From assembly GCA_021414205.1 (NCBI GenBank), contig JAIOOW010000003.1:64048-128047 (forward strand): a DNA stretch of 64,000 nt, read 5' to 3'. A program made the translations under genes and the position numbers. Origin of the DNA: Candidatus Anderseniibacteriota bacterium. Its GTDB lineage: Bacteria; Patescibacteriota; Andersenbacteria; UBA10190. Below are positions 31,563-52,503 of this stretch, in pieces (the first letter of the stretch is position 1; each line of letters opens with the position of its first letter). The notes beneath the pieces are model-generated. The model was not told where the DNA came from. It worked only from the letters and a program-made list of their open reading frames with translations, and made no database searches.

Positions 31563-33494
31563 TTGCGCTACCCGCGTCCACACGGCACTATTTCACGCAT
31601 AGCCTTATTTACTATTACGTGTATGAAATTATCTTTAGACAGCAAAAATATTGGAATCGGTATCTTGGTGGTAATCGGACTTTTTTTATTGATCGGCCTA
31701 TTTGCCCGCCCGCTCGATAACAGAAAAGACGTCAGTTTGTCGCAGATTGTAGAAGAGATTGGGAAAAACAATGTATCTAATATTGTTGTGGATCAAAATG
31801 ATATTATCGTCACGCTAAAAGATGATGCATCGAAGAAACTGGTTGCTCAAAAAGAGAGCGATGCATCAGTGACTGATACGTTTAAAAATCTCGGAGTGGC
31901 AGATAGTACGCTTCAGAAGATCGATTTAACGGTGAAAAAGCCTTCTGGGTTTGCTTTTTGGACTGCAACGCTTGCACCGGTAGTATTGCCATTCATCTTA
32001 TTGGCGTTTTTCTTGTGGTTTATGATGCGAAGCGCACAAAACATGGGCAATCGCGCAATGACATTCGGGCAATCGCAAAAAGGACCCGTTGAGCAAGCTG
32101 GTAGGAAAAAAACGACGTTTAAGCAGGTTGCAGGCAACGAAGAGGCGAAGCAGGAATTGGTTGAAATTGTTGAGTTTTTAAAGCATCCGAAGAAGTTTCA
32201 GGAAATCGGAGCTCGTATTCCAAAAGGAGTTCTTCTTATTGGGGCTCCTGGAACTGGGAAAACGCTGATGGCGCGAGCCGTCGCAGGCGAGGCTGGCGTC
32301 CCCTTCTTTAGCATCTCAGGTTCTGAATTCGTGGAAATGTTCGTTGGAGTAGGAGCTTCTCGAGTGCGAGACTTATTCGCGAAAGTGAAAAAGAATGCCC
32401 CTGCTATTTTGTTTATCGATGAAATGGATGCGGTTGGCCGTCATCGAGGAGCGGGCTTGGGTGGTGGACACGATGAGCGCGAGCAAACGTTGAACCAAAT
32501 CCTCGTTGAAATGGACGGATTTGAGCAAACGGATAATGTGATCGTGCTTGCTGCAACCAATCGCCCAGACGTGCTAGATCCAGCTCTGCTTCGCCCGGGA
32601 CGCTTTGATCGTCAGGTAACAATGGAATTGCCGGATATCAAGGAACGCGAAGCTATTTTGAAGATTCATGCAGAAAAAGTTCCTATGGAAGCGGATGTGG
32701 ATTTGAGAAACATTGGAGAACGCACGCCGGGATTTTCTGGCGCTGACTTAGCAAACCTTATTAACGAAGCTGCAATTTTCGCTGCTCGCGAGAACGTAAA
32801 GAAAGTGGCTCAGCGACATATTGAAGAAAGTATCGAAAAAGTTATTCTAGGACCAGAACGACGAAGCAAGGTGTATTCGAAGCAGGAAAAAGAACTTACG
32901 GCGTATCATGAAGCAGGGCACGCAGTTGTGGCGTACTACACTCCGGATTCTGACCCGGTTCGCAAAATCTCTATTATCTCTCGAGGATCTGCGGGCGGAT
33001 ATACGCTTAAGCTCCCCGAGCAAGACAAGCGACTGCACACCAAGACTGGATTCTTAAGCGAACTTGCGACGCTAATGGGTGGGTACACGGCAGAATTGTA
33101 CAAGTATAAAGAGCTTACAACTGGTGCGAGTAACGACTTAATGAAAGCCACTAAATTAGCTCGCAGAATCGTGATGCAGTTTGGAATGTCGAAATTAGGT
33201 CCTGTTACGTTCGGCCAAGAGGATCACCAGGTGTTCTTAGGGAAGGATTTCTCTGAAGGGCGCGATTATTCTGAAAAAACAGCATCGATGATTGATGATG
33301 AAGTATCTGAAATCTTAAAAGATGCGCAAAAGCGCGCTGAGCAAATTATTACGGAGCATGCAGATAAAATTGAGCTCATATCTCAACGCTTAATTGAAAA
33401 AGAAACGATGGGTCAAAAAGAATTCGCCGATCTCATGGGTGGCGCTGATCCAGACGTTGTAAAAGAAGACACTGAAATCAAGCCTGCGATATAA
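31563..33494 (+). CDS. ftsH: ATP-dependent zinc metalloprotease FtsH
   Basis: Walker [12 protein letters not shown] motif, HEAGHA zinc motif. True start may be the Met at about 31623. Confidence 0.95.
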
Positions 33495-33505
33495 ACGAAA
33501 TACGG

Positions 33506-33577
33506 TGCGCACGAGAAGGATCGAACTTCTGGCCCCCACAATGTCAATGTGATGCTCTACCACTGAGCTACGCGCGC
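33506..33577 (-). tRNA. tRNA-Val (anticodon GAC)
   Basis: Reverse complement GCGCGCGTAGCTCAGTGGTAGAGCATCACATTGACATTGTGGGGGCCAGAAGTTCGATCCTTCTCGTGCGCA, anticodon loop TTGACAT. Confidence 0.8.
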
Positions 33578-33628: not shown

Positions 33629-33701
33629 GGGCCCGTAGCTCAGTGGTTAGAGCGGTACTCTTATAAGGTACATGTCGGAGGTTCGATCCCTCCCGGGCCT
33701 A
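33629..33701 (+). tRNA. tRNA-Ile (anticodon UAU)
   Basis: GGGCCCGTAGCTCAGTGGTTAGAGCGGTACTCTTATAAGGTACATGTCGGAGGTTCGATCCCTCCCGGGCCTA. Anticodon stem GTACT/GGTAC, loop CTTATAA. Confidence 0.7.
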
Positions 33702-33733
33702 CTCGAAGTATTTAAGTCGCGTTCGGATACTTT

Positions 33734-34495
33734 TTAGGTATTATTAGGGATTAAGATTTCTTTGCAAAAGAAATCCCCAAATGGAGTTATGTAAACTTCC
33801 GGCAATTCACGAATTTTTGAGTCTGAGGGCGTAATTCCATATTGAGAGTTTTGATCTGCTTCACGCATAGTCTGAATAATTTTTGTTGCAGGTTCCCTGA
33901 TTACTACAAGTCCATAGTTACCAAGTGCATATAGTTTTGTGAGCCAGGCTCTCTGCTTTTCCTGATCTCGAATTTGATCGATGAATTTTGGTTTATATGG
34001 AATTTGGTTACCAAATCCTTTTTTATACCAAGCTCTGATAGTATCTTCTTGCTTCGCTAGGTCCAGTAAAAGTGTCGCTTCGTCTGTATTAATTTGATCT
34101 AAAACTGTAAGAAATCTTGAATGCCAATCCTCGCGTATTCTAAATTCCGGATCAATAGAATTACCCATAGCATTGAGTATCATTTGTCGTTTTTGTTTTG
34201 AGTTTTCGCGTAAATATTTTTCAATCAAATTCCACACCAGTACCCGCATTGATTCGCTCTCTGATAACATTTTTGTCAGCCTATCGCCATTCTGCTTTAA
34301 ATATTGATCTAATTCTTTTGCTCGATTGCCACTTAAAGCACTGCGAATAGCTATTCCTGTAAATAAGATATTTGCCAAAGCAGTTTGCTGTGTGAGATCA
34401 GGAACCATTACGCCGAGAAATGAAGTAAGTGCTGGTAGCATCTGCTTTGTGATTTCCAGGGCATTTTTCTTATCCCTTTCTGCGCTATTGTTCAT
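33734..34495 (-). CDS. hypothetical protein (alpha-helical, no recognisable domain), last gene of the toxin-antitoxin-linked four-gene cluster
   Basis: 253-aa ORF, AT-rich, 32 nt downstream of the preceding gene. Confidence 0.5.
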   Translation of the reverse strand: MNNSAERDKKNALEITKQMLPALTSFLGVMVPDLTQQTALANILFTGIAIRSALSGNRAKELDQYLKQNGDRLTKMLSESESMRVLVWNLIEKYLRENSKQKRQMILNAMGNSIDPEFRIREDWHSRFLTVLDQINTDEATLLLDLAKQEDTIRAWYKKGFGNQIPYKPKFIDQIRDQEKQRAWLTKLYALGNYGLVVIREPATKIIQTMREADQNSQYGITPSDSKIRELPEVYITPFGDFFCKEILIPNNT

Positions 34496-34527
34496 TTTTC
34501 CTTTGACAAGTTATTACCTAATATTTT

Positions 34528-34977
34528 TTAGTTATGAATTTTAATTGATGTTTCGAACGGAATCTCGGTTAGGGTTTTATATTTTTCCATGTCATGGCTT
34601 TTTAGCTTGATACGAAAGACGTAGTCACTACTTACTTTGTTAACTGCTAAGCCATTAATCTTAAATCGTGCACGCAACCTTTTCATTCCCTTGGGCATTT
34701 TTACTTCTTGCTTAAAACTATTCAGTACCTGCCCTTTTGAGTCGCAAAATTCTATTATATTATCACCGGATGTATTTTTTAGAGGATCCGTGTTCTCGAA
34801 AAAGCTTACAATCTCAAAGTTAATAGGAATATTGATTCTTTCTGGTTCGGGTAATTGGGGATTCTCTATTTTTATTTCTATATCAATTCGTTCAAGAATA
34901 TCAAATAGGGTGATGTTGTTAGTATCGCTATCTATTACTGACTTCTGACAAAGAACTGACCAAATGTGTTTAATCAT
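34528..34977 (-). CDS. hypothetical protein (beta-rich, no recognisable domain)
   Basis: 149-aa ORF starting 2 nt after the antitoxin stop. Confidence 0.5.
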   Translation of the reverse strand: MIKHIWSVLCQKSVIDSDTNNITLFDILERIDIEIKIENPQLPEPERINIPINFEIVSFFENTDPLKNTSGDNIIEFCDSKGQVLNSFKQEVKMPKGMKRLRARFKINGLAVNKVSSDYVFRIKLKSHDMEKYKTLTEIPFETSIKIHN

Positions 34978-34979
34978 AT

Positions 34980-35408
34980 TTACAAAGAAGCTATTTTAAA
35001 TGATTGAGTATTTTCTGCTCTTTTTTTAAAAAACAATCTAAGAGAGGTATTAGGAATGTTTCTTTCCGTTTCTGCAACTATTGCTATTGCCTCATTAATT
35101 ACTGAGGAGCCACGAGAGCTAATGCTTAATGTTCTTCTTTCTGTTTCAAGAAAGGAGAAGCGAGGAGGAATTAGGGTTGTGCTTAGCGCTAACGCTATTC
35201 TCTCTAGAAATCTTAGGGTTGGTAAAGAAGCTCCGTTTTCAATTCGTGCAATGCTGGGTTGTTTAGTTCCCGTTCTCTTTGCTAGTTCTGTCTGAGTGAG
35301 TCCTTTTGCAATGCGAGCTTCGATTATGAGTCGAGCAATATCTTCAGAAAGATCGATATTTGAGGGGGTATTTCCTAATAATTGTTTTTTTAGTAATGAT
35401 AGTTTCAT
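34980..35408 (-). CDS. higA: XRE-family HTH transcriptional regulator, HigA-like antitoxin
   Basis: IIEARIAKGLTQTELAKRTGTKQPSIARIENG (HTH_3). Immediately downstream of the Gp49-like toxin gene. Confidence 0.7.
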   Translation of the reverse strand: MKLSLLKKQLLGNTPSNIDLSEDIARLIIEARIAKGLTQTELAKRTGTKQPSIARIENGASLPTLRFLERIALALSTTLIPPRFSFLETERRTLSISSRGSSVINEAIAIVAETERNIPNTSLRLFFKKRAENTQSFKIASL

Positions 35409-35413
35409 ATAAA

Positions 35414-35761
35414 TTATTTAAAGTATATTGTTTTATATCGTTTTTCCGCTTTTTTGAGTTCTTTTGGTGGAATTCCTCGAGTTTTTTTCATAAAGCCGTG
35501 GAGTATGTGATAAGTATTGACGGCGTCCTTGGTGAAGAAGAATCGGTAGGAACATTTATTTTTAATATATCTAATGTAGAAAAGTGCTTTATGGGGTTTA
35601 ATCTTTTCCACCACTCTGGACTGCAAGTGTTGCGCCAGGCCCCTACTGTCGATTTGTTCAAAGAGCCAGAAGAATCGCTCTTGCGCCTCTCTTGGTTGCT
35701 TCTCAAGGAAAAGTCGTACGTCGCTTTTCCCAGAAGCGTGTTTCCAGAAACGTATATCCAT
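35414..35761 (-). CDS. higB: phage Gp49-like / HigB-like type II toxin (RelE/ParE superfamily)
   Basis: MDIRFWKHASGKSDVRLFL...YRFFFTKDAVNTYHILHGFMKKTRGIPPKELKKAEKR is the characteristic Gp49/DUF891 pattern. The toxin-first gene order is typical of HigBA. Confidence 0.75.
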   Translation of the reverse strand: MDIRFWKHASGKSDVRLFLEKQPREAQERFFWLFEQIDSRGLAQHLQSRVVEKIKPHKALFYIRYIKNKCSYRFFFTKDAVNTYHILHGFMKKTRGIPPKELKKAEKRYKTIYFK

Positions 35762-35780
35762 TCCCTTGTCTTCATGAGTA

Positions 35781-35806
35781 AATATATAACATATATGTTA
35801 TATATT
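35781..35806. promoter_or_regulatory. 26-bp perfect palindrome (candidate operator/promoter of the toxin-antitoxin operon)
   Basis: AATATATAACATATATGTTATATATT, 20 nt upstream of the higB start. Contains TATA-like -10 candidates. Confidence 0.45.
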
Positions 35807-35863
35807 AACAGCTGTTTTTGGTATGTCAACAGGATTATTCTTCCATCTCAATCAGATTGTTAC

Positions 35864-48954: not shown

Positions 48955-49322
48955 TAGATGCTCATCGTGTCAAAAGCGTCCTGTATGTGGGTTATCTCAG
49001 GGTCTTTGTAAGGAATAAACTCGATAGATACAACATCAAAGCGCGCGTCGCCCCAATAATTCTCTTTTACCTGATACATGCGAGCTGTTTTAATCAGCTT
49101 TTGTTGTTTTTGCCAGAACACCGTTTCAAGGCCCTGTCCGAATGTTGTTGATGCGCGAGCGCGCACTTCTACAAACACTCGCGTCTGCTTATCATTAAAT
49201 ATCAAATCAATTTCCCCAGTCTTCCAACTCCAATTGGAAGTTATAAATGTATAGCCAAGCTTGATCAGGTATTCTTTAGCAACTCGCTCGCCCTCAGCTC
49301 CTATTTGTTGCGTACTCCCCAT
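48954..49322 (-). CDS. YraN/UPF0102 family endonuclease
   Basis: GAEGERVAKEYL...GEIDLIF...VFVEVRAR pattern. Confidence 0.7.
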   Translation of the reverse strand: MGSTQQIGAEGERVAKEYLIKLGYTFITSNWSWKTGEIDLIFNDKQTRVFVEVRARASTTFGQGLETVFWQKQQKLIKTARMYQVKENYWGDARFDVVSIEFIPYKDPEITHIQDAFDTMSI

Positions 49323-50181
49323 ATTTCAACAACACATTTGATCCGCTCGATTCAAATAATCGAATTAATCGTTGCTCGTCTAAACTATTGAGTTCGGAAA
49401 AAATAGTAGTGTGCGGCAAGATACTTAAAACTTCAGCATCGCTCATTGATCGAATATCCAAACCGGTAACGCATGAATCGGGCGATGATCGCATTCCCGC
49501 CGCATGTGCTACTGCTATGCATGTATACAGATTGTCACTCGAAAATATTTTAACTGATGAAATATTTTTCTGTGCAATTTCTTGATGAATAGAATCAATG
49601 CCTTCGCGCATGTGTAACGGAATACTGAATGCACCGAGCCACTGAAATTGGTTCATAGAATTTTTATGAATTGCTGATTCGTATTGTTCTCGACGAGCTA
49701 TCGCAATAACCTTATTTCTTTTTCTCATGATGCTCTCAAGATTTTTTTGTAGTGCAAATTTTTCCGCACTTGGCATATAGGTGACATGCAATACATCGGC
49801 AGGGCTGCCGGAGATAAGTAAAATATTTTCACCTTGCGTGCGGTGTGTTACTAATTGAGCTTCTAAAGAAGTGTTGTGAATATGTTGCAGCGCATCTAAA
49901 AATTTCCAGTATCTCAAAATAGATTCGTGATCTTTATGTTTTTCTTTTTTATCTTTATGCATATGAGCAAGCGCGACGAGCGACAATTCTTCCTGTTCAT
50001 TTTTAGGATCTTCTGCGAGGTCGTACGTTGTACCATCTGCGTATATAATATTTTGAATCCGCAAGTCTGGTTGCGTATAGATGTCCGTATAGTCTGTGCA
50101 CAATATAGTTGTATCACTCACGACATTAGTATACACGAGAGAGTATGATCGTGCATGATGCAAGCCAAGCAAGTGCTCCAA
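49294..50181 (-). CDS. hypothetical protein
   Basis: 295-aa ORF with no confident domain; faint resemblance to a nucleotide-binding or hydrolase fold. Confidence 0.4.
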   Translation of the reverse strand: MEHLLGLHHARSYSLVYTNVVSDTTILCTDYTDIYTQPDLRIQNIIYADGTTYDLAEDPKNEQEELSLVALAHMHKDKKEKHKDHESILRYWKFLDALQHIHNTSLEAQLVTHRTQGENILLISGSPADVLHVTYMPSAEKFALQKNLESIMRKRNKVIAIARREQYESAIHKNSMNQFQWLGAFSIPLHMREGIDSIHQEIAQKNISSVKIFSSDNLYTCIAVAHAAGMRSSPDSCVTGLDIRSMSDAEVLSILPHTTIFSELNSLDEQRLIRLFESSGSNVLLKYGEYATNRS

Positions 50182-51286
50182 TTTGAGTTACAAAATAATG
50201 ATCAAAAAATAATGCGGGCAGTATAGTGAACAATATCCATGCATTATGTTTGTAGATAAAATATATGATTGTCAGAAAGATTATCGCAGCTAAAAATATC
50301 CCGAACTCCATGACCAGAAAAATAGGAACAGAATGTACTGGAGCAATATCCCACGCAAAATGCGGTATCGAATTTGATTCCAGTTGGGCACTGAGCGCCT
50401 TCTCGTAATTTCCCAATCCCAATCCCCGAATCAGCGTTCTTGGTGTAGCCATATCTTTTGCCCAGATTAATCCTTCTAATCGATCATGGGCCGCAACGTC
50501 GCGAGAGTCAGTAGATCGTCCTACTAAGAGTGGTGAAAAAAGAGCAATCAAGATGAGCATACTTAGAATGATTATTCTTTTCTTTTCTCTAAGGGCTATA
50601 TATATGCCGATAAGAATTGCAGATAGGATTGCCGTTCTGGAAAAAGTCGCGAGCAGCCCAATGTAAAGCGATGCAAATAGCGAATAGGTGAATAGTTTTG
50701 TTTTTATCGTAACCCTGGTTAGCAGTAGTATTGCTACCGCTAGTACGCCGCCCAAGATATTGGCATGAGCGAAAGGACCGTATGATCTTATAAACTTTTG
50801 ATCGTGGATATAAAACGATGCAACACCCGAGGTATTTATATTCAGTACAGATTCGCCAATTTTTATAAGTCCCAGATCGTGTTGCAGTATGAATTGTGCA
50901 GCTCCCCATTGTGCATACAGCGATGTGCAGGCTATGTATGTAAGCGCGATATATATAGCTTGTTTTTTTGCACTACTACTAATTGTCGCCGTGATCAGGA
51001 GCAGAGTTAAAAACGAATATACTAATGCGACGGATGAAATTCTATGAAGCCCAATCAATGCGCTTAGAGTAATAAGACTCGTAGATCCTAGAAAAAAATA
51101 CACATATTTTTGCTGAACACGTTTATAGTTCAGTCCAAAAAATATAATCAGAGCACCAAAAATAATTACCAACCAGCTCCACGTGCTACGGGTAAGGCTT
51201 GAATCGTCAATTGAAGCGCGTACAAGAGGTAGTACTGACAGGATGACTACAAGAATGCTGTTGGTGATAGACGCTCGCTTGGTCAT
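50126..51286 (-). CDS. O-antigen ligase (Wzy/WaaL/RfaL-like) family polytopic membrane protein
   Basis: At least 10 TM segments with an ATFSRTAILSAILIGIYIAL core. Confidence 0.6.
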   Translation of the reverse strand: MTKRASITNSILVVILSVLPLVRASIDDSSLTRSTWSWLVIIFGALIIFFGLNYKRVQQKYVYFFLGSTSLITLSALIGLHRISSVALVYSFLTLLLITATISSSAKKQAIYIALTYIACTSLYAQWGAAQFILQHDLGLIKIGESVLNINTSGVASFYIHDQKFIRSYGPFAHANILGGVLAVAILLLTRVTIKTKLFTYSLFASLYIGLLATFSRTAILSAILIGIYIALREKKRIIILSMLILIALFSPLLVGRSTDSRDVAAHDRLEGLIWAKDMATPRTLIRGLGLGNYEKALSAQLESNSIPHFAWDIAPVHSVPIFLVMEFGIFLAAIIFLTIIYFIYKHNAWILFTILPALFFDHYFVTQIGALAWLASCTIILSRVY

Positions 51287-51315
51287 GATCGTATCGTATC
51301 ATGACTGCCTGAACA

Positions 51316-52503
51316 CTATTTCTTTTTTTCTTTTTTGGATTTTTTTGGCGCTGGGAGCTCTTCTTCTTTGAGGCTCAACCCAAGGCGATGCTCTTTTGGT
51401 TCAAGAGAAATAATAGTGAATTCCATCGTGTCTCCAACATGCAGATGCGCGGTAGGATCTTTTTGAATATCCAAAGGCAATTCAGATACGTGTACGAGGC
51501 CGTGAATATCTTTATCTAGCTGCACAAATCCTCCGAATGGCGTAACTTTTAGGATTTTCCCTTTTACCTTGTCATTCACATTGTATTTTTCAGCAGCTTT
51601 AAGCCAAGGGTCTTGCTGGAGTTGCTTGATTGAAAGAGATATGCGGAGTCCATTGTCGATTCCGATTACCTTTGCGTGTACTTTTTCTCCAACGCTCAAG
51701 ATATCCGCCGGATTATCAATTCTCTGCCATGCGATTTCAGAAATATGTACGAGACCTTCAAGCTCCTGACCTTTTTCTTCAAACTTTACGAATGCTCCGA
51801 AGTCAACGATACCGCTTACAACACCTTCTACTGTTTTTCCCTGTCCTAGATTATCTAGAGTAGTGCTCATTTCGTCGCTTACTGCAGCTTTTTCTGAAAC
51901 GATAAGCTTCTCATTTTCTTGGTCAATCGTAATGGCTTTAATCTTGAACATTTGTCCGACGTAGCTTTGGAGACGTTCCTGGATCTTTGACTTATCCCCA
52001 CCTTCAACTCGTGGATAGTGATCTGGTGCAAGCTGTGAGACAGGTAAAAAGCCGGTAACGCCGTTCACTCGTACAATAAGGCCACCCTTATTTGCATCAA
52101 TAATCTCGCTTTCGAAAGCAACGTCATCGTCAAGTTTTCGTCGGAGCTCTTCCCAGCTGCGTTCTCGAGTAGCTGTTCTAAGAGATAATTCAATATATCC
52201 TTCTTCGTTATCGAGTGCCTGAATAGTAGCTTGGACAGTATCTCCGATTTTTGAACGCTTGAATGTATCGATATCATCGAACAATTCTTTGCCATATATA
52301 ACTCCTACTCCGAATCTTCCAATATCAACGTAGAGCGCATTGCTTGTTTTCTCTAGAATTGATCCGGTAAGAACCTCTCCTACTACGGGTACATGAGCCA
52401 AGTCGTCGTGTTTCCCTAGTAATTCTTCCATGTTGATTTGCTTCGTTCCAGGTGTTGCGGTTTTCATGCCCCGTATCATGACATATGCAATATAAATGGT
52501 CAA
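51316..52503 (-). CDS. rpsA: 30S ribosomal protein S1 (four S1 domains, K-rich tail)
   Basis: Repeated S1 OB-fold motifs (GxV...G.FV...GLVH.SE). Start is probably an internal Met. Confidence 0.8.
   Translation of the reverse strand: MTIYIAYVMIRGMKTATPGTKQINMEELLGKHDDLAHVPVVGEVLTGSILEKTSNALYVDIGRFGVGVIYGKELFDDIDTFKRSKIGDTVQATIQALDNEEGYIELSLRTATRERSWEELRRKLDDDVAFESEIIDANKGGLIVRVNGVTGFLPVSQLAPDHYPRVEGGDKSKIQERLQSYVGQMFKIKAITIDQENEKLIVSEKAAVSDEMSTTLDNLGQGKTVEGVVSGIVDFGAFVKFEEKGQELEGLVHISEIAWQRIDNPADILSVGEKVHAKVIGIDNGLRISLSIKQLQQDPWLKAAEKYNVNDKVKGKILKVTPFGGFVQLDKDIHGLVHVSELPLDIQKDPTAHLHVGDTMEFTIISLEPKEHRLGLSLKEEELPAPKKSKKEKKK

What the first reader, a model, noticed from the sequence alone, without database searches (positions are those of the whole stretch)
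33702..35863. AT-rich island at a tRNA hotspot: HigB(Gp49)-HigA module fused in one operon with two unknown genes (candidate defence or abortive-infection cassette)
The island lies between tRNA-Ile(UAU)/tRNA-Val(GAC) and the MacAB efflux operon. GC drops to about 28-30% against about 45% for the window. Four minus-strand genes are packed with 2-32-nt gaps: a Gp49-like/HigB-like toxin (115 aa), an XRE-HTH antitoxin (142 aa), a 149-aa beta-rich protein and a 253-aa helical protein, the last two with no recognisable domains. A 26-bp perfect palindrome sits in the promoter region. The low GC, the tRNA-adjacent position and the phage-derived toxin all suggest horizontal acquisition. Fusion of the two unknown genes with the toxin-antitoxin pair resembles TA-regulated phage-defence cassettes.
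Basis: partly seen in the sequence, partly recalled or inferred. Interest (0 to 1): 0.7.

Follow-up and report, generated by a model that had tools for sequence, protein, structure and literature searches.

The report
Three-gene toxin-antitoxin module with new partner
A low-GC islet beside two tRNA genes in a Candidatus Andersenbacteria genome carries a HigB/HigA-type toxin-antitoxin pair whose third gene (DUF6941, a small beta-sandwich protein) turns out to be a recurrent, undescribed third partner of at least three different toxin-antitoxin families, laid out like the known toxin-antitoxin-chaperone systems but with a different fold; the fourth gene is a separate, weakly Abi-alpha-like neighbour.

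Summary
Four tightly packed minus-strand genes lie between tRNA-Ile(UAU) and a MacB operon, and a perfect 26-bp palindrome overlaps the -10 box. The GC drop is to 36%, not 28-30%.

The reading as a four-gene cassette is only partly right. Genes 1-3 form a conserved three-gene module. In 72 of 72 related loci with enough upstream DNA, a DUF6941 gene directly follows a small gene on the same strand, and 40 of 73 such junctions have overlapping stop and start codons. The upstream pair varies: Gp49+HTH (37 loci), DUF6883+DUF4926 (11) and DUF4258-like+DUF2283 (8). All three antitoxin types carry a 35-70-aa C-terminal tail that ends hydrophobic and uncharged.

This is the logic of toxin-antitoxin-chaperone (TAC) systems. 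However, the third protein is an all-beta Ig-like sandwich, not SecB.

Gene 4 occurs in no other such locus. It scores below the Pfam threshold for Abi_alpha and has a winged-helix-like C-terminus.

My best reading is a TAC-like tripartite toxin-antitoxin module plus an independent accessory gene. The gene association is shown. Binding of the antitoxin tail by DUF6941 is inferred, and one result argues against tail and DUF6941 travelling together. No paper in the searched library mentions DUF6941.

The parts
35802..35829 (-). Promoter-like site: -35 TTGACA (35829-35824), 16-nt spacer, TG-extended -10 TAATAT (35807-35802)
   Evidence: 10 of 12 hexamer matches, the best site in the region. The total number of sites in the region is not above the shuffle expectation, so position and context carry the argument.
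35781..35806 (.). Perfect 26-bp palindrome AATATATAACATATATGTTATATATT. Candidate operator for the HTH antitoxin; overlaps the -10 box.
   Evidence: (I7). Related Gp49 loci have palindromes with half-site TATAAC(A)/TATACC 15-50 nt upstream of the toxin start. Arms of 9 nt or more occur in 11 of 34 loci against 1.6% of shuffled upstream regions.
35414..35761 (-). Gene 1: toxin, 115 aa, Gp49/HigB-like (RelE/ParE-type BECR fold family)
   Evidence: Pfam Gp49 PF05973 E 1.1e-12, 48.3 bits against cut-off 23.9, covering profile positions 2-90 of 90. phrog_2523 E 4e-13. According to PMC11980606, the family includes M. tuberculosis HigB1 and consists of ribosome-dependent mRNases with toxin-then-antitoxin gene order.
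34980..35408 (-). Gene 2: antitoxin and presumed autorepressor, 142 aa. XRE-type HTH at residues 28-78.
   Evidence: HTH_3 E 6e-14. The closest solved relative with a toxin-antitoxin name is S. pneumoniae HigA 6af3_B (97 aa, E 6e-6). The alignment ends 9 residues before that chain's end, whereas this protein continues for 62 more residues.
34983..35174 (-). C-terminal extension of the antitoxin (residues 79-142). It is rich in Ser, Thr, Asn and Lys and ends ...QSFKIASL. Candidate docking or degron tail, analogous to ChAD.
   Evidence: Antitoxins followed by DUF6941 have a median of 50 (HTH), 54 (DUF4926) and 38 (DUF2283) residues after the domain. Pfam boundaries are 4-60 of 128 aa and 12-56 of 113 aa. 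HTH proteins in the same loci that are not followed by DUF6941 have 0-5 residues after the domain. The last residue is L/I/V/M/A/F in 72%, against 43% of toxins and 15% of DUF6941 proteins (Fisher p = 4e-9).
34528..34977 (-). Gene 3: 149-aa DUF6941-family protein, an all-beta (9 strands) Ig-like sandwich. Conserved third component of the module.
33734..34495 (-). Gene 4: 253-aa helical protein, a borderline Abi_alpha (DUF4393) match with a winged-helix-like C-terminal part. A locus-specific neighbour, not part of the conserved module.
33629..33702 (+). tRNA-Ile(UAU), converging on gene 4 (31 nt away); one boundary of the islet
   Evidence: ARAGORN; Rfam tRNA 69.6 bits.
33504..33577 (-). tRNA-Val(GAC), flanking

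Best explanation
The islet encodes a tripartite toxin-antitoxin module plus one unrelated accessory gene.

Gene 1 is a Gp49/HigB-type toxin that would cleave mRNA on the ribosome. Gene 2 is its antitoxin. Its XRE-type HTH domain would bind the 26-bp palindrome over the -10 box and shut off the operon. Its 64-residue C-terminal tail is probably disordered and ends in an uncharged hydrophobic C-terminus.

Gene 3 (DUF6941) is a cytoplasmic beta-sandwich protein made in step with the antitoxin. I propose that it holds the antitoxin's tail and thereby controls whether the antitoxin stays soluble and safe from proteases. SecB-like chaperones do this for the ChAD tail in TAC systems. On that model, anything that removes DUF6941 from the tail frees the toxin and stops translation. 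A competing phage protein or stress could do so.

Gene 4 is a separate gene that may be co-transcribed. It is distantly Abi-alpha-like and its mechanism is unknown.

Shown:
- the family assignments of genes 1 and 2;
- the promoter and palindrome;
- the fold of gene 3;
- the strict, tightly spaced linkage of DUF6941 to three antitoxin families;
- the tails and their C-terminal bias.

Inferred:
- toxin activity;
- repression by the antitoxin;
- any contact between DUF6941 and the tail;
- the direction of the effect (stabilising);
- any role in phage defence.
For: - Gene 1 matches Gp49 and gene 2 matches HTH_3, in toxin-then-antitoxin order.
- The palindrome overlaps the -10 box. Homologous loci share the half-site.
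- The same Gp49 -> HTH -> DUF6941 order was first seen in five independent CPR contexts.
- Among 79 distinct DUF6941 genes, every one of the 72 loci with at least 400 nt of upstream DNA has a same-strand gene ending -35 to +45 nt from the DUF6941 start. 40 of 73 junctions overlap by 1, 4 or 8 nt.
- The upstream gene is HTH_3 in 42, DUF4926 in 15 and DUF2283 in 10 of 74.
- The gene before that is Gp49 in 34 and DUF6883 in 11. One is DUF4258 and one is ParE.
- DUF6883/DUF4926 and DUF4258 are described as BECR RNase toxin/immunity sets.
- DUF6941 proteins 85% and 77% identical serve different toxin-antitoxin families, so the partner gene is exchanged between modules.
- Tails of 35-70 aa occur in all three antitoxin families but not in HTH proteins that lack a downstream DUF6941 or in solved HigA.
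- The C-terminus is hydrophobic and uncharged in all three classes.
- TAC systems have the same architecture: toxin-antitoxin-chaperone order, a variable C-terminal ChAD, one chaperone family serving several antitoxin families, and antiphage sensing.
- The toxin of the M. tuberculosis TAC is itself a Gp49-family member.
Against: - No physical or modelled contact between DUF6941 and the tail could be obtained.
- DUF6941 is not SecB-like and no chaperone activity is known for this fold family.
- The tails of the three classes are not detectably homologous.
- Cross-class tail similarity tracks DUF6941 similarity only weakly (rho 0.11; 2 of 500 permutations reach it).
- In the closest cross-class pair, DNA identity is 83-100% inside the DUF6941 gene and falls to background exactly at its start codon. 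The tails are 29% identical. Tail and partner were therefore not transferred together, unlike what specific ChAD-chaperone pairs would predict.
- The control set of antitoxins without DUF6941 is small (4-5 proteins).
- The C-terminal regular-expression motif was chosen after looking at the data. The positional counts were not.
- One locus (L102) has DUF6941 after polyamine genes rather than a toxin-antitoxin pair.
Confidence: 0.55

Rival explanations
1. DUF6941 is a destabiliser rather than a guardian. It would act as an adaptor that recognises the hydrophobic, degron-like C-terminus of the antitoxin and hands it to a protease (FtsH, Clp or Lon), setting antitoxin turnover. This resembles SspB acting on ssrA-tagged proteins.
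For: Antitoxin C-termini are non-polar and uncharged. They resemble the ends of the tmRNA tags found next to some of these modules (...PAYALVA...PAYAIA). Near-identical DUF6941 proteins work beside very different tails, which fits recognition of a generic C-terminal feature. That non-polar C-termini act as degradation signals is established knowledge, not tested here.
Against: A module that encodes its own antitoxin destabiliser in fixed stoichiometry (overlapping stop and start codons) would be constantly self-toxic unless it were regulated. No protease-binding motif or flexible tail is seen on DUF6941, whose model is compact with pLDDT 90.7. No data separate this from the guardian model.
Confidence: 0.15
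2. One reading: the four genes form one TA-regulated defence cassette. The 149-aa and 253-aa proteins are the effectors, and HigBA acts as regulator or trigger.
For: All four genes share a strand with gaps of 2-32 nt and no predicted terminator between them. Gene 4 has a borderline Abi_alpha match, and Abi-alpha is an experimentally shown single-gene abortive-infection protein. In a Shapirobacteria relative the triad is followed by a BsaWI-type restriction-modification pair.
Against: No gene-4 relative was detected in the other 78 distinct triad loci. Its relatives elsewhere sit in non-TA contexts. Downstream genes of the triad are heterogeneous, about half are convergent, and most are housekeeping. 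Gene 3 has no enzymatic or membrane features and tracks the antitoxin, not a variable effector slot.
Confidence: 0.1
3. DUF6941 is a passenger with no functional tie to the toxin-antitoxin pair. It could be a small selfish or stress gene that inserts preferentially at the 3' end of TA operons. The antitoxin tails would then be unrelated low-complexity extensions common in CPR proteins.
For: The recombination break lies exactly at the DUF6941 start codon. The tails lack detectable homology. The L102 exception exists. The fold is generic.
Against: The gene sits immediately after an antitoxin-type gene in 68 of 74 cases across three unrelated families. 55% of the stop and start codons overlap, which argues for coupled translation. 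Tails are absent from neighbouring HTH proteins without DUF6941. The C-terminal bias is specific to the antitoxin position. Several polar residues (H4, C10, N20, E29, R100, R102, Y119) are kept under protein-level selection while their codons vary.
Confidence: 0.12

Closest known systems
TAC (toxin-antitoxin-chaperone) systems: M. tuberculosis HigB1-HigA1-SecB(TA) (Rv1955-57) and E. coli HigBAC and CmdTAC
   Same: Three genes in the order toxin, antitoxin, third protein. The toxin is of the Gp49 family, like HigB1. The antitoxin is an HTH protein with a C-terminal extension of variable sequence and aromatic or hydrophobic character. One third-protein family serves several unrelated antitoxin families: HigA, MqsA and HicB in TAC, and HTH, DUF4926 and DUF2283 here.
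   Different: The third protein is a 9-strand Ig-like beta-sandwich (DUF6941), not the alpha/beta SecB fold. The partner toxin-antitoxin families differ except for HigBA. Almost all hosts are CPR/Patescibacteria. Chaperone activity, tail binding and phage sensing are untested. In one close pair the third gene was exchanged without the tail, whereas ChAD-SecB pairs are reported to be specific.
Two-component HigBA (Gp49/HigB with XRE-HTH HigA), e.g. S. pneumoniae HigBA (PDB 6AF3)
   Same: Toxin and antitoxin families, toxin-first order, and a palindromic operator at the promoter.
   Different: The antitoxin here is 142 aa against 97 aa, with a 62-residue extension beyond the aligned region, and a third gene follows 2 nt after it.
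Abi-alpha (EF2833 of E. faecalis V583 prophage 6; Pfam Abi_alpha/DUF4393)
   Same: Gene 4 has a similar size (253 aa against 272 aa), is helical, and aligns to positions 30-194 of the 196-position profile at E 7.8e-6.
   Different: The score is below the Pfam cut-off. Only 4 of 35 family members touch the profile. The gene is not on a prophage. No viral structural match was found. The phenotype is untested.
Other three-part TA systems (omega-epsilon-zeta, PaaR-PaaA-ParE, PasABC, HipBST), named from general knowledge
   Same: A third gene modulates a toxin-antitoxin pair.
   Different: In those systems the third part is a DNA-binding regulator, a split antitoxin or a small helper protein specific to one family. 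Here the antitoxin already carries the HTH, and the third gene is shared across families. These systems were not tested here.

Membership tests
Type II toxin-antitoxin, HigBA (Gp49/HTH) type | Toxin with Gp49/RelE-ParE-type domain | tested here: met
   PF05973 E 1.1e-12, 48.3 bits against cut-off 23.9, full-length profile match.
Type II toxin-antitoxin, HigBA (Gp49/HTH) type | Adjacent XRE-type HTH antitoxin, toxin gene first, tight spacing | tested here: met
   HTH_3 E 6e-14. The toxin gene lies upstream with a 5-nt gap. HigA 6af3_B is the closest solved relative with a toxin-antitoxin name.
Type II toxin-antitoxin, HigBA (Gp49/HTH) type | Palindromic operator in the promoter, bound by the antitoxin | tested here: inconclusive
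   A perfect 26-bp palindrome lies over the -10 box, and the half-site recurs in homologous loci. Binding itself is not testable here.
Type II toxin-antitoxin, HigBA (Gp49/HTH) type | Toxin arrests growth and antitoxin neutralises it | not testable with these tools
   Needs expression assays.
TAC (toxin-antitoxin-chaperone) | Three co-oriented genes: toxin, antitoxin, third protein | tested here: met
   Window and about 79 distinct related loci.
TAC (toxin-antitoxin-chaperone) | Antitoxin carries a C-terminal extension (ChAD) absent from two-component relatives | tested here: met
   Median 38-54 residues after the domain in three families, against 0-5 in HTH proteins not followed by DUF6941 and 9 in HigA 6af3_B. 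The control set is small.
TAC (toxin-antitoxin-chaperone) | Third protein is a SecB homologue | tested here: not met
TAC (toxin-antitoxin-chaperone) | Third protein binds the extension and prevents aggregation or degradation of the antitoxin | not testable with these tools
No multimer tool is available.
TAC (toxin-antitoxin-chaperone) | Same third-protein family associated with several antitoxin families | tested here: met
   HTH_3 42, DUF4926 15, DUF2283 10. The classes are interleaved in the DUF6941 tree, with cross-class pairs 85% and 77% identical.
Pfam DUF6941 (PF22091) | Score above the gathering cut-off (27 bits) | tested here: inconclusive
   The window protein itself gives no hit. Its homologues P0007, P0008 and P0010 score 29.7-34.8 bits and match the window protein at E 1e-17 to 1e-21.
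Pfam Abi_alpha (PF14337, DUF4393) | Score above the gathering cut-off (29 bits) | tested here: not met
   26.5 bits, E 7.8e-6 with model version .13. The database's precomputed annotation with version .14 and NCBI's name do list it. Only 4 of 35 relatives hit at E <= 0.1.
Pfam Abi_alpha (PF14337, DUF4393) | Abortive-infection phenotype (premature lysis) as for EF2833 | not testable with these tools
   The phenotype is described in PMC6356687.
tRNA-associated genomic island | Deviant composition next to a tRNA gene | tested here: met
   36.1% against 45.3% GC, the lowest window in 64 kb, 31 nt from tRNA-Ile.
tRNA-associated genomic island | Integrase and flanking direct repeats (att) derived from the tRNA end | tested here: not met
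   There is no integrase ORF among the four genes. No flanking direct repeat of 9 nt or more and no approximate copy of a tRNA end was found.
tRNA-associated genomic island | Absent from close relatives at the same locus | not tested
Exact look-up of the MacB protein found no other contig.

The most novel reading that the evidence does not exclude
DUF6941 defines a second, structurally unrelated class of 'third partner' for toxin-antitoxin systems. It would be an Ig-like beta-sandwich that grips the hydrophobic C-terminal tails of at least three antitoxin families (HigA-type HTH, DUF4926, DUF2283). In CPR/Patescibacteria it would play the guardian and sensor role that SecB-like chaperones play in TAC systems. 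This would make it a convergent solution to 'chaperone addiction' and possibly a phage sensor.
Probability: 0.4. Interest if true: 0.75.

Novelty: new variant of a known kind. Interest (0 to 1): 0.66.

Why it matters
Tripartite toxin-antitoxin-chaperone systems are so far tied to one chaperone fold, SecB. Recent work shows that the chaperone is the phage sensor of an abortive-infection switch. A second, unrelated partner family laid out the same way would show that guarding the antitoxin through a C-terminal tail has evolved more than once.

It would also assign a role to an uncharacterised Pfam family that no paper in the searched library mentions. It would point to a defence or stress switch in CPR bacteria, whose immune repertoire is poorly known. 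The module has three small genes, so it is directly testable in E. coli.

Tried and rejected
- SecB-like chaperone hypothesis for gene 3: rejected on fold.
- Foldseek against AFDB50: the library was not available.
- Unifying the antitoxin tails with iterative profile searches against shuffled decoys: each seed recovered only close relatives, with no cross-class motif.
- 'Tail plus DUF6941 move together': not supported, because identity breaks at the DUF6941 start codon.
- DNA- or RNA-level constraint on the conserved 5' end of the DUF6941 gene: rejected, because synonymous codons vary.
- att repeats or tRNA-end duplicates at the islet borders: none found.
- Viral origin of DUF6941: no relative in 2.9 million viral contigs.
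- Viral or solved structural relatives of gene 4: none significant apart from a generic winged-helix resemblance.
- PADLOC models for genes 3 and 4: no hits.
- Functional link to FtsH, which is adjacent in the window and in L001, L007 and L080: this is better explained by the tmRNA-smpB-ftsH cluster and tRNA genes acting as insertion sites.
- Looking for near-identical strains lacking the islet through the MacB protein: nothing on record.
Full report
**Observation**

The window comes from a Candidatus Andersenbacteria (CPR/Patescibacteria) metagenome-assembled genome, on a 436-kb contig. Four minus-strand ORFs of 115, 142, 149 and 253 aa lie at 35414-35761, 34980-35408, 34528-34977 and 33734-34495. 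The gaps between them are 5, 2 and 32 nt.

On one side the genes are bounded by tRNA-Ile(UAU) at 33629-33702 and tRNA-Val(GAC) at 33504-33577. On the other side lies a MacB_PCD/FtsX permease, an ABC ATPase and a HlyD adaptor operon. FtsH lies beyond the tRNAs.

GC of 33703-35863 is 36.1%, against 45.3% for the window. This is the lowest of all 2161-nt windows, 4.2 SD below the mean.

The 26-bp perfect palindrome is real, at 35781-35806. It overlaps a TG-extended -10 box (TAATAT) placed 16 nt after a perfect TTGACA. No terminator-like site separates the four genes. No Rfam family other than the tRNAs is present.

**Genes 1 and 2**

Gene 1 is a full-length Gp49 (PF05973) match at E 1.1e-12. Gene 2 carries an XRE-type HTH (HTH_3, E 6e-14) at residues 28-78.

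According to PMC11980606, the Gp49 family consists of ribosome-dependent mRNases with toxin-then-antitoxin gene order. It includes M. tuberculosis HigB1.

The closest solved relative of gene 2 with a toxin-antitoxin name is S. pneumoniae HigA (6af3_B, 97 aa). That alignment ends 9 residues before the chain's end, whereas the window protein runs on for 62 more residues.

In 34 related loci the region upstream of the toxin gene is enriched in palindromes. Arms of 9 nt or more occur in 32% of loci against 1.6% of shuffled regions. Many share the half-site TATAAC(A) or TATACC with the window's palindrome. This supports an operator for the antitoxin. Binding itself is inferred.

**Gene 3 is the main result**

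The 149-aa protein has no Pfam hit of its own. Its homologues (33-47% identical) include three that pass the cut-off of DUF6941 (PF22091). No paper in the searched library mentions that family.

Genomic context was first seen in five independent CPR contigs, which all show Gp49 -> HTH -> DUF6941 in the same order. Scans of one genome per species and of metagenomes added 96 loci. A scan of viral contigs added none.

After removing duplicates there are 79 distinct DUF6941 genes. In all 72 loci with at least 400 nt of upstream DNA, a same-strand ORF ends between -35 and +45 nt of the DUF6941 start. In 40 of 73 cases the stop and start codons overlap by 1, 4 or 8 nt.

Pfam scans of these neighbours gave the following.
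- The gene directly upstream is HTH_3 in 42, DUF4926 in 15 and DUF2283 in 10 of 74.
- The gene before that is Gp49 in 34 and DUF6883 in 11. One is DUF4258 and one is ParE.

A local profile classification gives the pairings Gp49+HTH (37), DUF6883+DUF4926 (11) and DUF4258-like+DUF2283 (8). Only one of the DUF2283 partners is recognised by Pfam as DUF4258. The others are tied to it by the local profile only.

A recent preprint describes DUF6883 as a BECR RNase with DUF4926 as its downstream immunity partner. It places DUF4258 in the same superfamily.

DUF6941 is therefore the third gene of at least three unrelated BECR-toxin/antitoxin pairs. In a tree of the DUF6941 proteins the three classes are interleaved. 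Proteins 85% identical (L055, L064) and 77% identical (L023, L063) sit behind different toxin-antitoxin families.

**Antitoxin tails**

All three antitoxin types that precede DUF6941 are longer than their fold domain.
- Median residues after the domain: 50 for HTH, 54 for DUF4926 and 38 for DUF2283.
- Pfam boundaries: DUF4926 covers residues 4-60 of 128 aa, and DUF2283 covers 12-56 of 113 aa.
- HTH proteins in the same contigs that are not followed by DUF6941 have 0-5 residues after the domain. That control set is only 4-5 proteins.

The tails are polar but end in an uncharged hydrophobic C-terminus.
- The last residue is L/I/V/M/A/F in 72%, against 43% of the toxins and 15% of the DUF6941 proteins (Fisher p = 4e-9).
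- No charged residue occurs in the last four positions in 74%, against 34% and 23%.
- Aromatic residues are enriched at positions -6 and -4.

The window's antitoxin ends ...QSFKIASL.

**What argues against a simple tail-partner model**

- The tails of the three classes cannot be joined by profile searches.
- Cross-class tail similarity correlates only weakly with DUF6941 similarity (rho 0.11; 2 of 500 permutations reach it).
- In the L055/L064 pair, DNA identity is 83-100% within the DUF6941 gene and drops to background exactly at its start codon. The tails are 29% identical. The partner gene was therefore swapped without the tail.

If DUF6941 binds tails, it must read a loose pattern rather than a specific sequence.

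The invariant N-terminal strand (MIKHIWSVLC) is conserved at the protein level and not at the codon level.

**Comparison with known systems**

The architecture matches TAC systems on several counts.
- Toxin, antitoxin and third gene lie in that order.
- The antitoxin has a C-terminal 'chaperone addiction' extension of variable sequence with an aromatic pattern.
- One chaperone family is attached to HigA, MqsA and HicB antitoxins.
- In E. coli HigBAC the chaperone doubles as the phage sensor.

The toxin of the M. tuberculosis TAC is a Gp49-family protein, like gene 1.

The defining feature that fails is the identity of the third protein: DUF6941 is not SecB. I therefore file this as a TAC-like tripartite module with a new partner, not as a TAC member.

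**Gene 4**

The 253-aa protein scores 26.5 bits against Abi_alpha (cut-off 29, E 7.8e-6, profile positions 30-194 of 196). NCBI calls it DUF4393.

Abi-alpha (EF2833) is a single prophage gene that causes premature lysis of phage-infected E. faecalis.

A full HMMER scan of 1.84 billion representative proteins found only six distant relatives. A profile search found 35, all from CPR bacteria and all 214-285 aa long. Only 4 of the 35 touch Abi_alpha at E <= 0.1.

No relative of gene 4 occurs in any other triad locus. Two relatives examined elsewhere lie in non-TA contexts.

The gene downstream of the triad is generally variable. About half are convergent, and most are housekeeping genes such as FtsZ, PGI and L10. 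A BsaWI-type restriction enzyme occurs twice, and Fic, PD-(D/E)XK and NYN domains occur once each.

Gene 4 is thus a locus-specific neighbour. It is possibly co-transcribed and possibly a defence gene.

**Acquisition**

Evidence that the islet was acquired:
- low GC;
- direct adjacency to a tRNA gene;
- the scatter of the triad across unrelated contexts;
- placement of several relatives next to tmRNA (L001, L007, L088) or tRNA genes (L019, L092, L098).

Evidence that is missing:
- there is no integrase, flanking repeat or tRNA-end copy;
- absence from close relatives could not be tested.

**Verdict**

DUF6941 is a recurrent, exchangeable third partner of BECR-type toxin-antitoxin pairs with tailed antitoxins, found almost entirely in CPR bacteria. 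The association is shown. The mechanism (guarding the tail, as in TAC) is an inference that I hold at about 40-55%.

Noticed in passing
window 33629-33702: A tRNA-Ile with anticodon UAU. From general knowledge, most bacteria read AUA with a lysidine-modified CAU tRNA, so a UAU isoacceptor is uncommon and may say something about AUA decoding in this lineage.
   Followed up: no
L001 5688-6096, L007 5754-6158, L088 3664-4072: In Yonathbacteria-type loci the triad ends 200-300 nt from a tmRNA gene, followed by smpB and ftsH. The tmRNA tags end ...PAYALVA or ...PAYAIA, similar in character to the hydrophobic ends of the antitoxin tails (for example ...AVGQIAV and ...ATAQAIL in the same loci).
   Followed up: partly
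window 31563-33494; L001, L007, L080: ftsH lies within a few genes of the triad in the window and in three other distinct loci. This is probably a by-product of insertion next to tRNA or tmRNA genes rather than a functional link.
   Followed up: partly
L102 877-1329 and upstream: One DUF6941 homologue follows an S-adenosylmethionine decarboxylase and a BpsA-like polyamine synthase gene instead of a toxin-antitoxin pair. It is the only clear exception to the rule.
   Followed up: no
L009/L011 1624-3091; L014 4572-5273: In a Shapirobacteria-type locus the triad is followed on the same strand by a BsaWI-like restriction endonuclease. In L009-L012 an N6/N4 methyltransferase follows that (not checked in L014).
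   Followed up: partly
L014, L015, L018: Three genome records labelled 'uncultured Gammaproteobacteria' carry triads. In L014 the DUF6941 N-terminus differs at one of its first 25 residues from that of a Shapirobacteria contig (L011). The taxonomic labels of these bins may be wrong, or the module moved recently.
   Followed up: no
L110 4001-4741: A relative of gene 4 (P0014, CPR2) sits inside a same-strand run of HD phosphohydrolase, PTPS and NUDIX genes. This context does not look like defence.
   Followed up: no
window about 49050-51660: A second stretch where 2161-nt windows fall just below 40% GC. It was not examined.
   Followed up: no
window 34528-34977 (residue 117): The window's DUF6941 protein has Ser where 99% of 78 family members have Gly (position 117), and Thr where 94% have Ser (position 23).
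   Followed up: no
window 33734-34495 (residues 20-53): The N-terminal part of gene 4 and its relatives contains two moderately hydrophobic helices that are modelled with low confidence (pLDDT 50-64). They could be membrane-associated. Abi-alpha has been discussed in connection with lysis timing.
   Followed up: no
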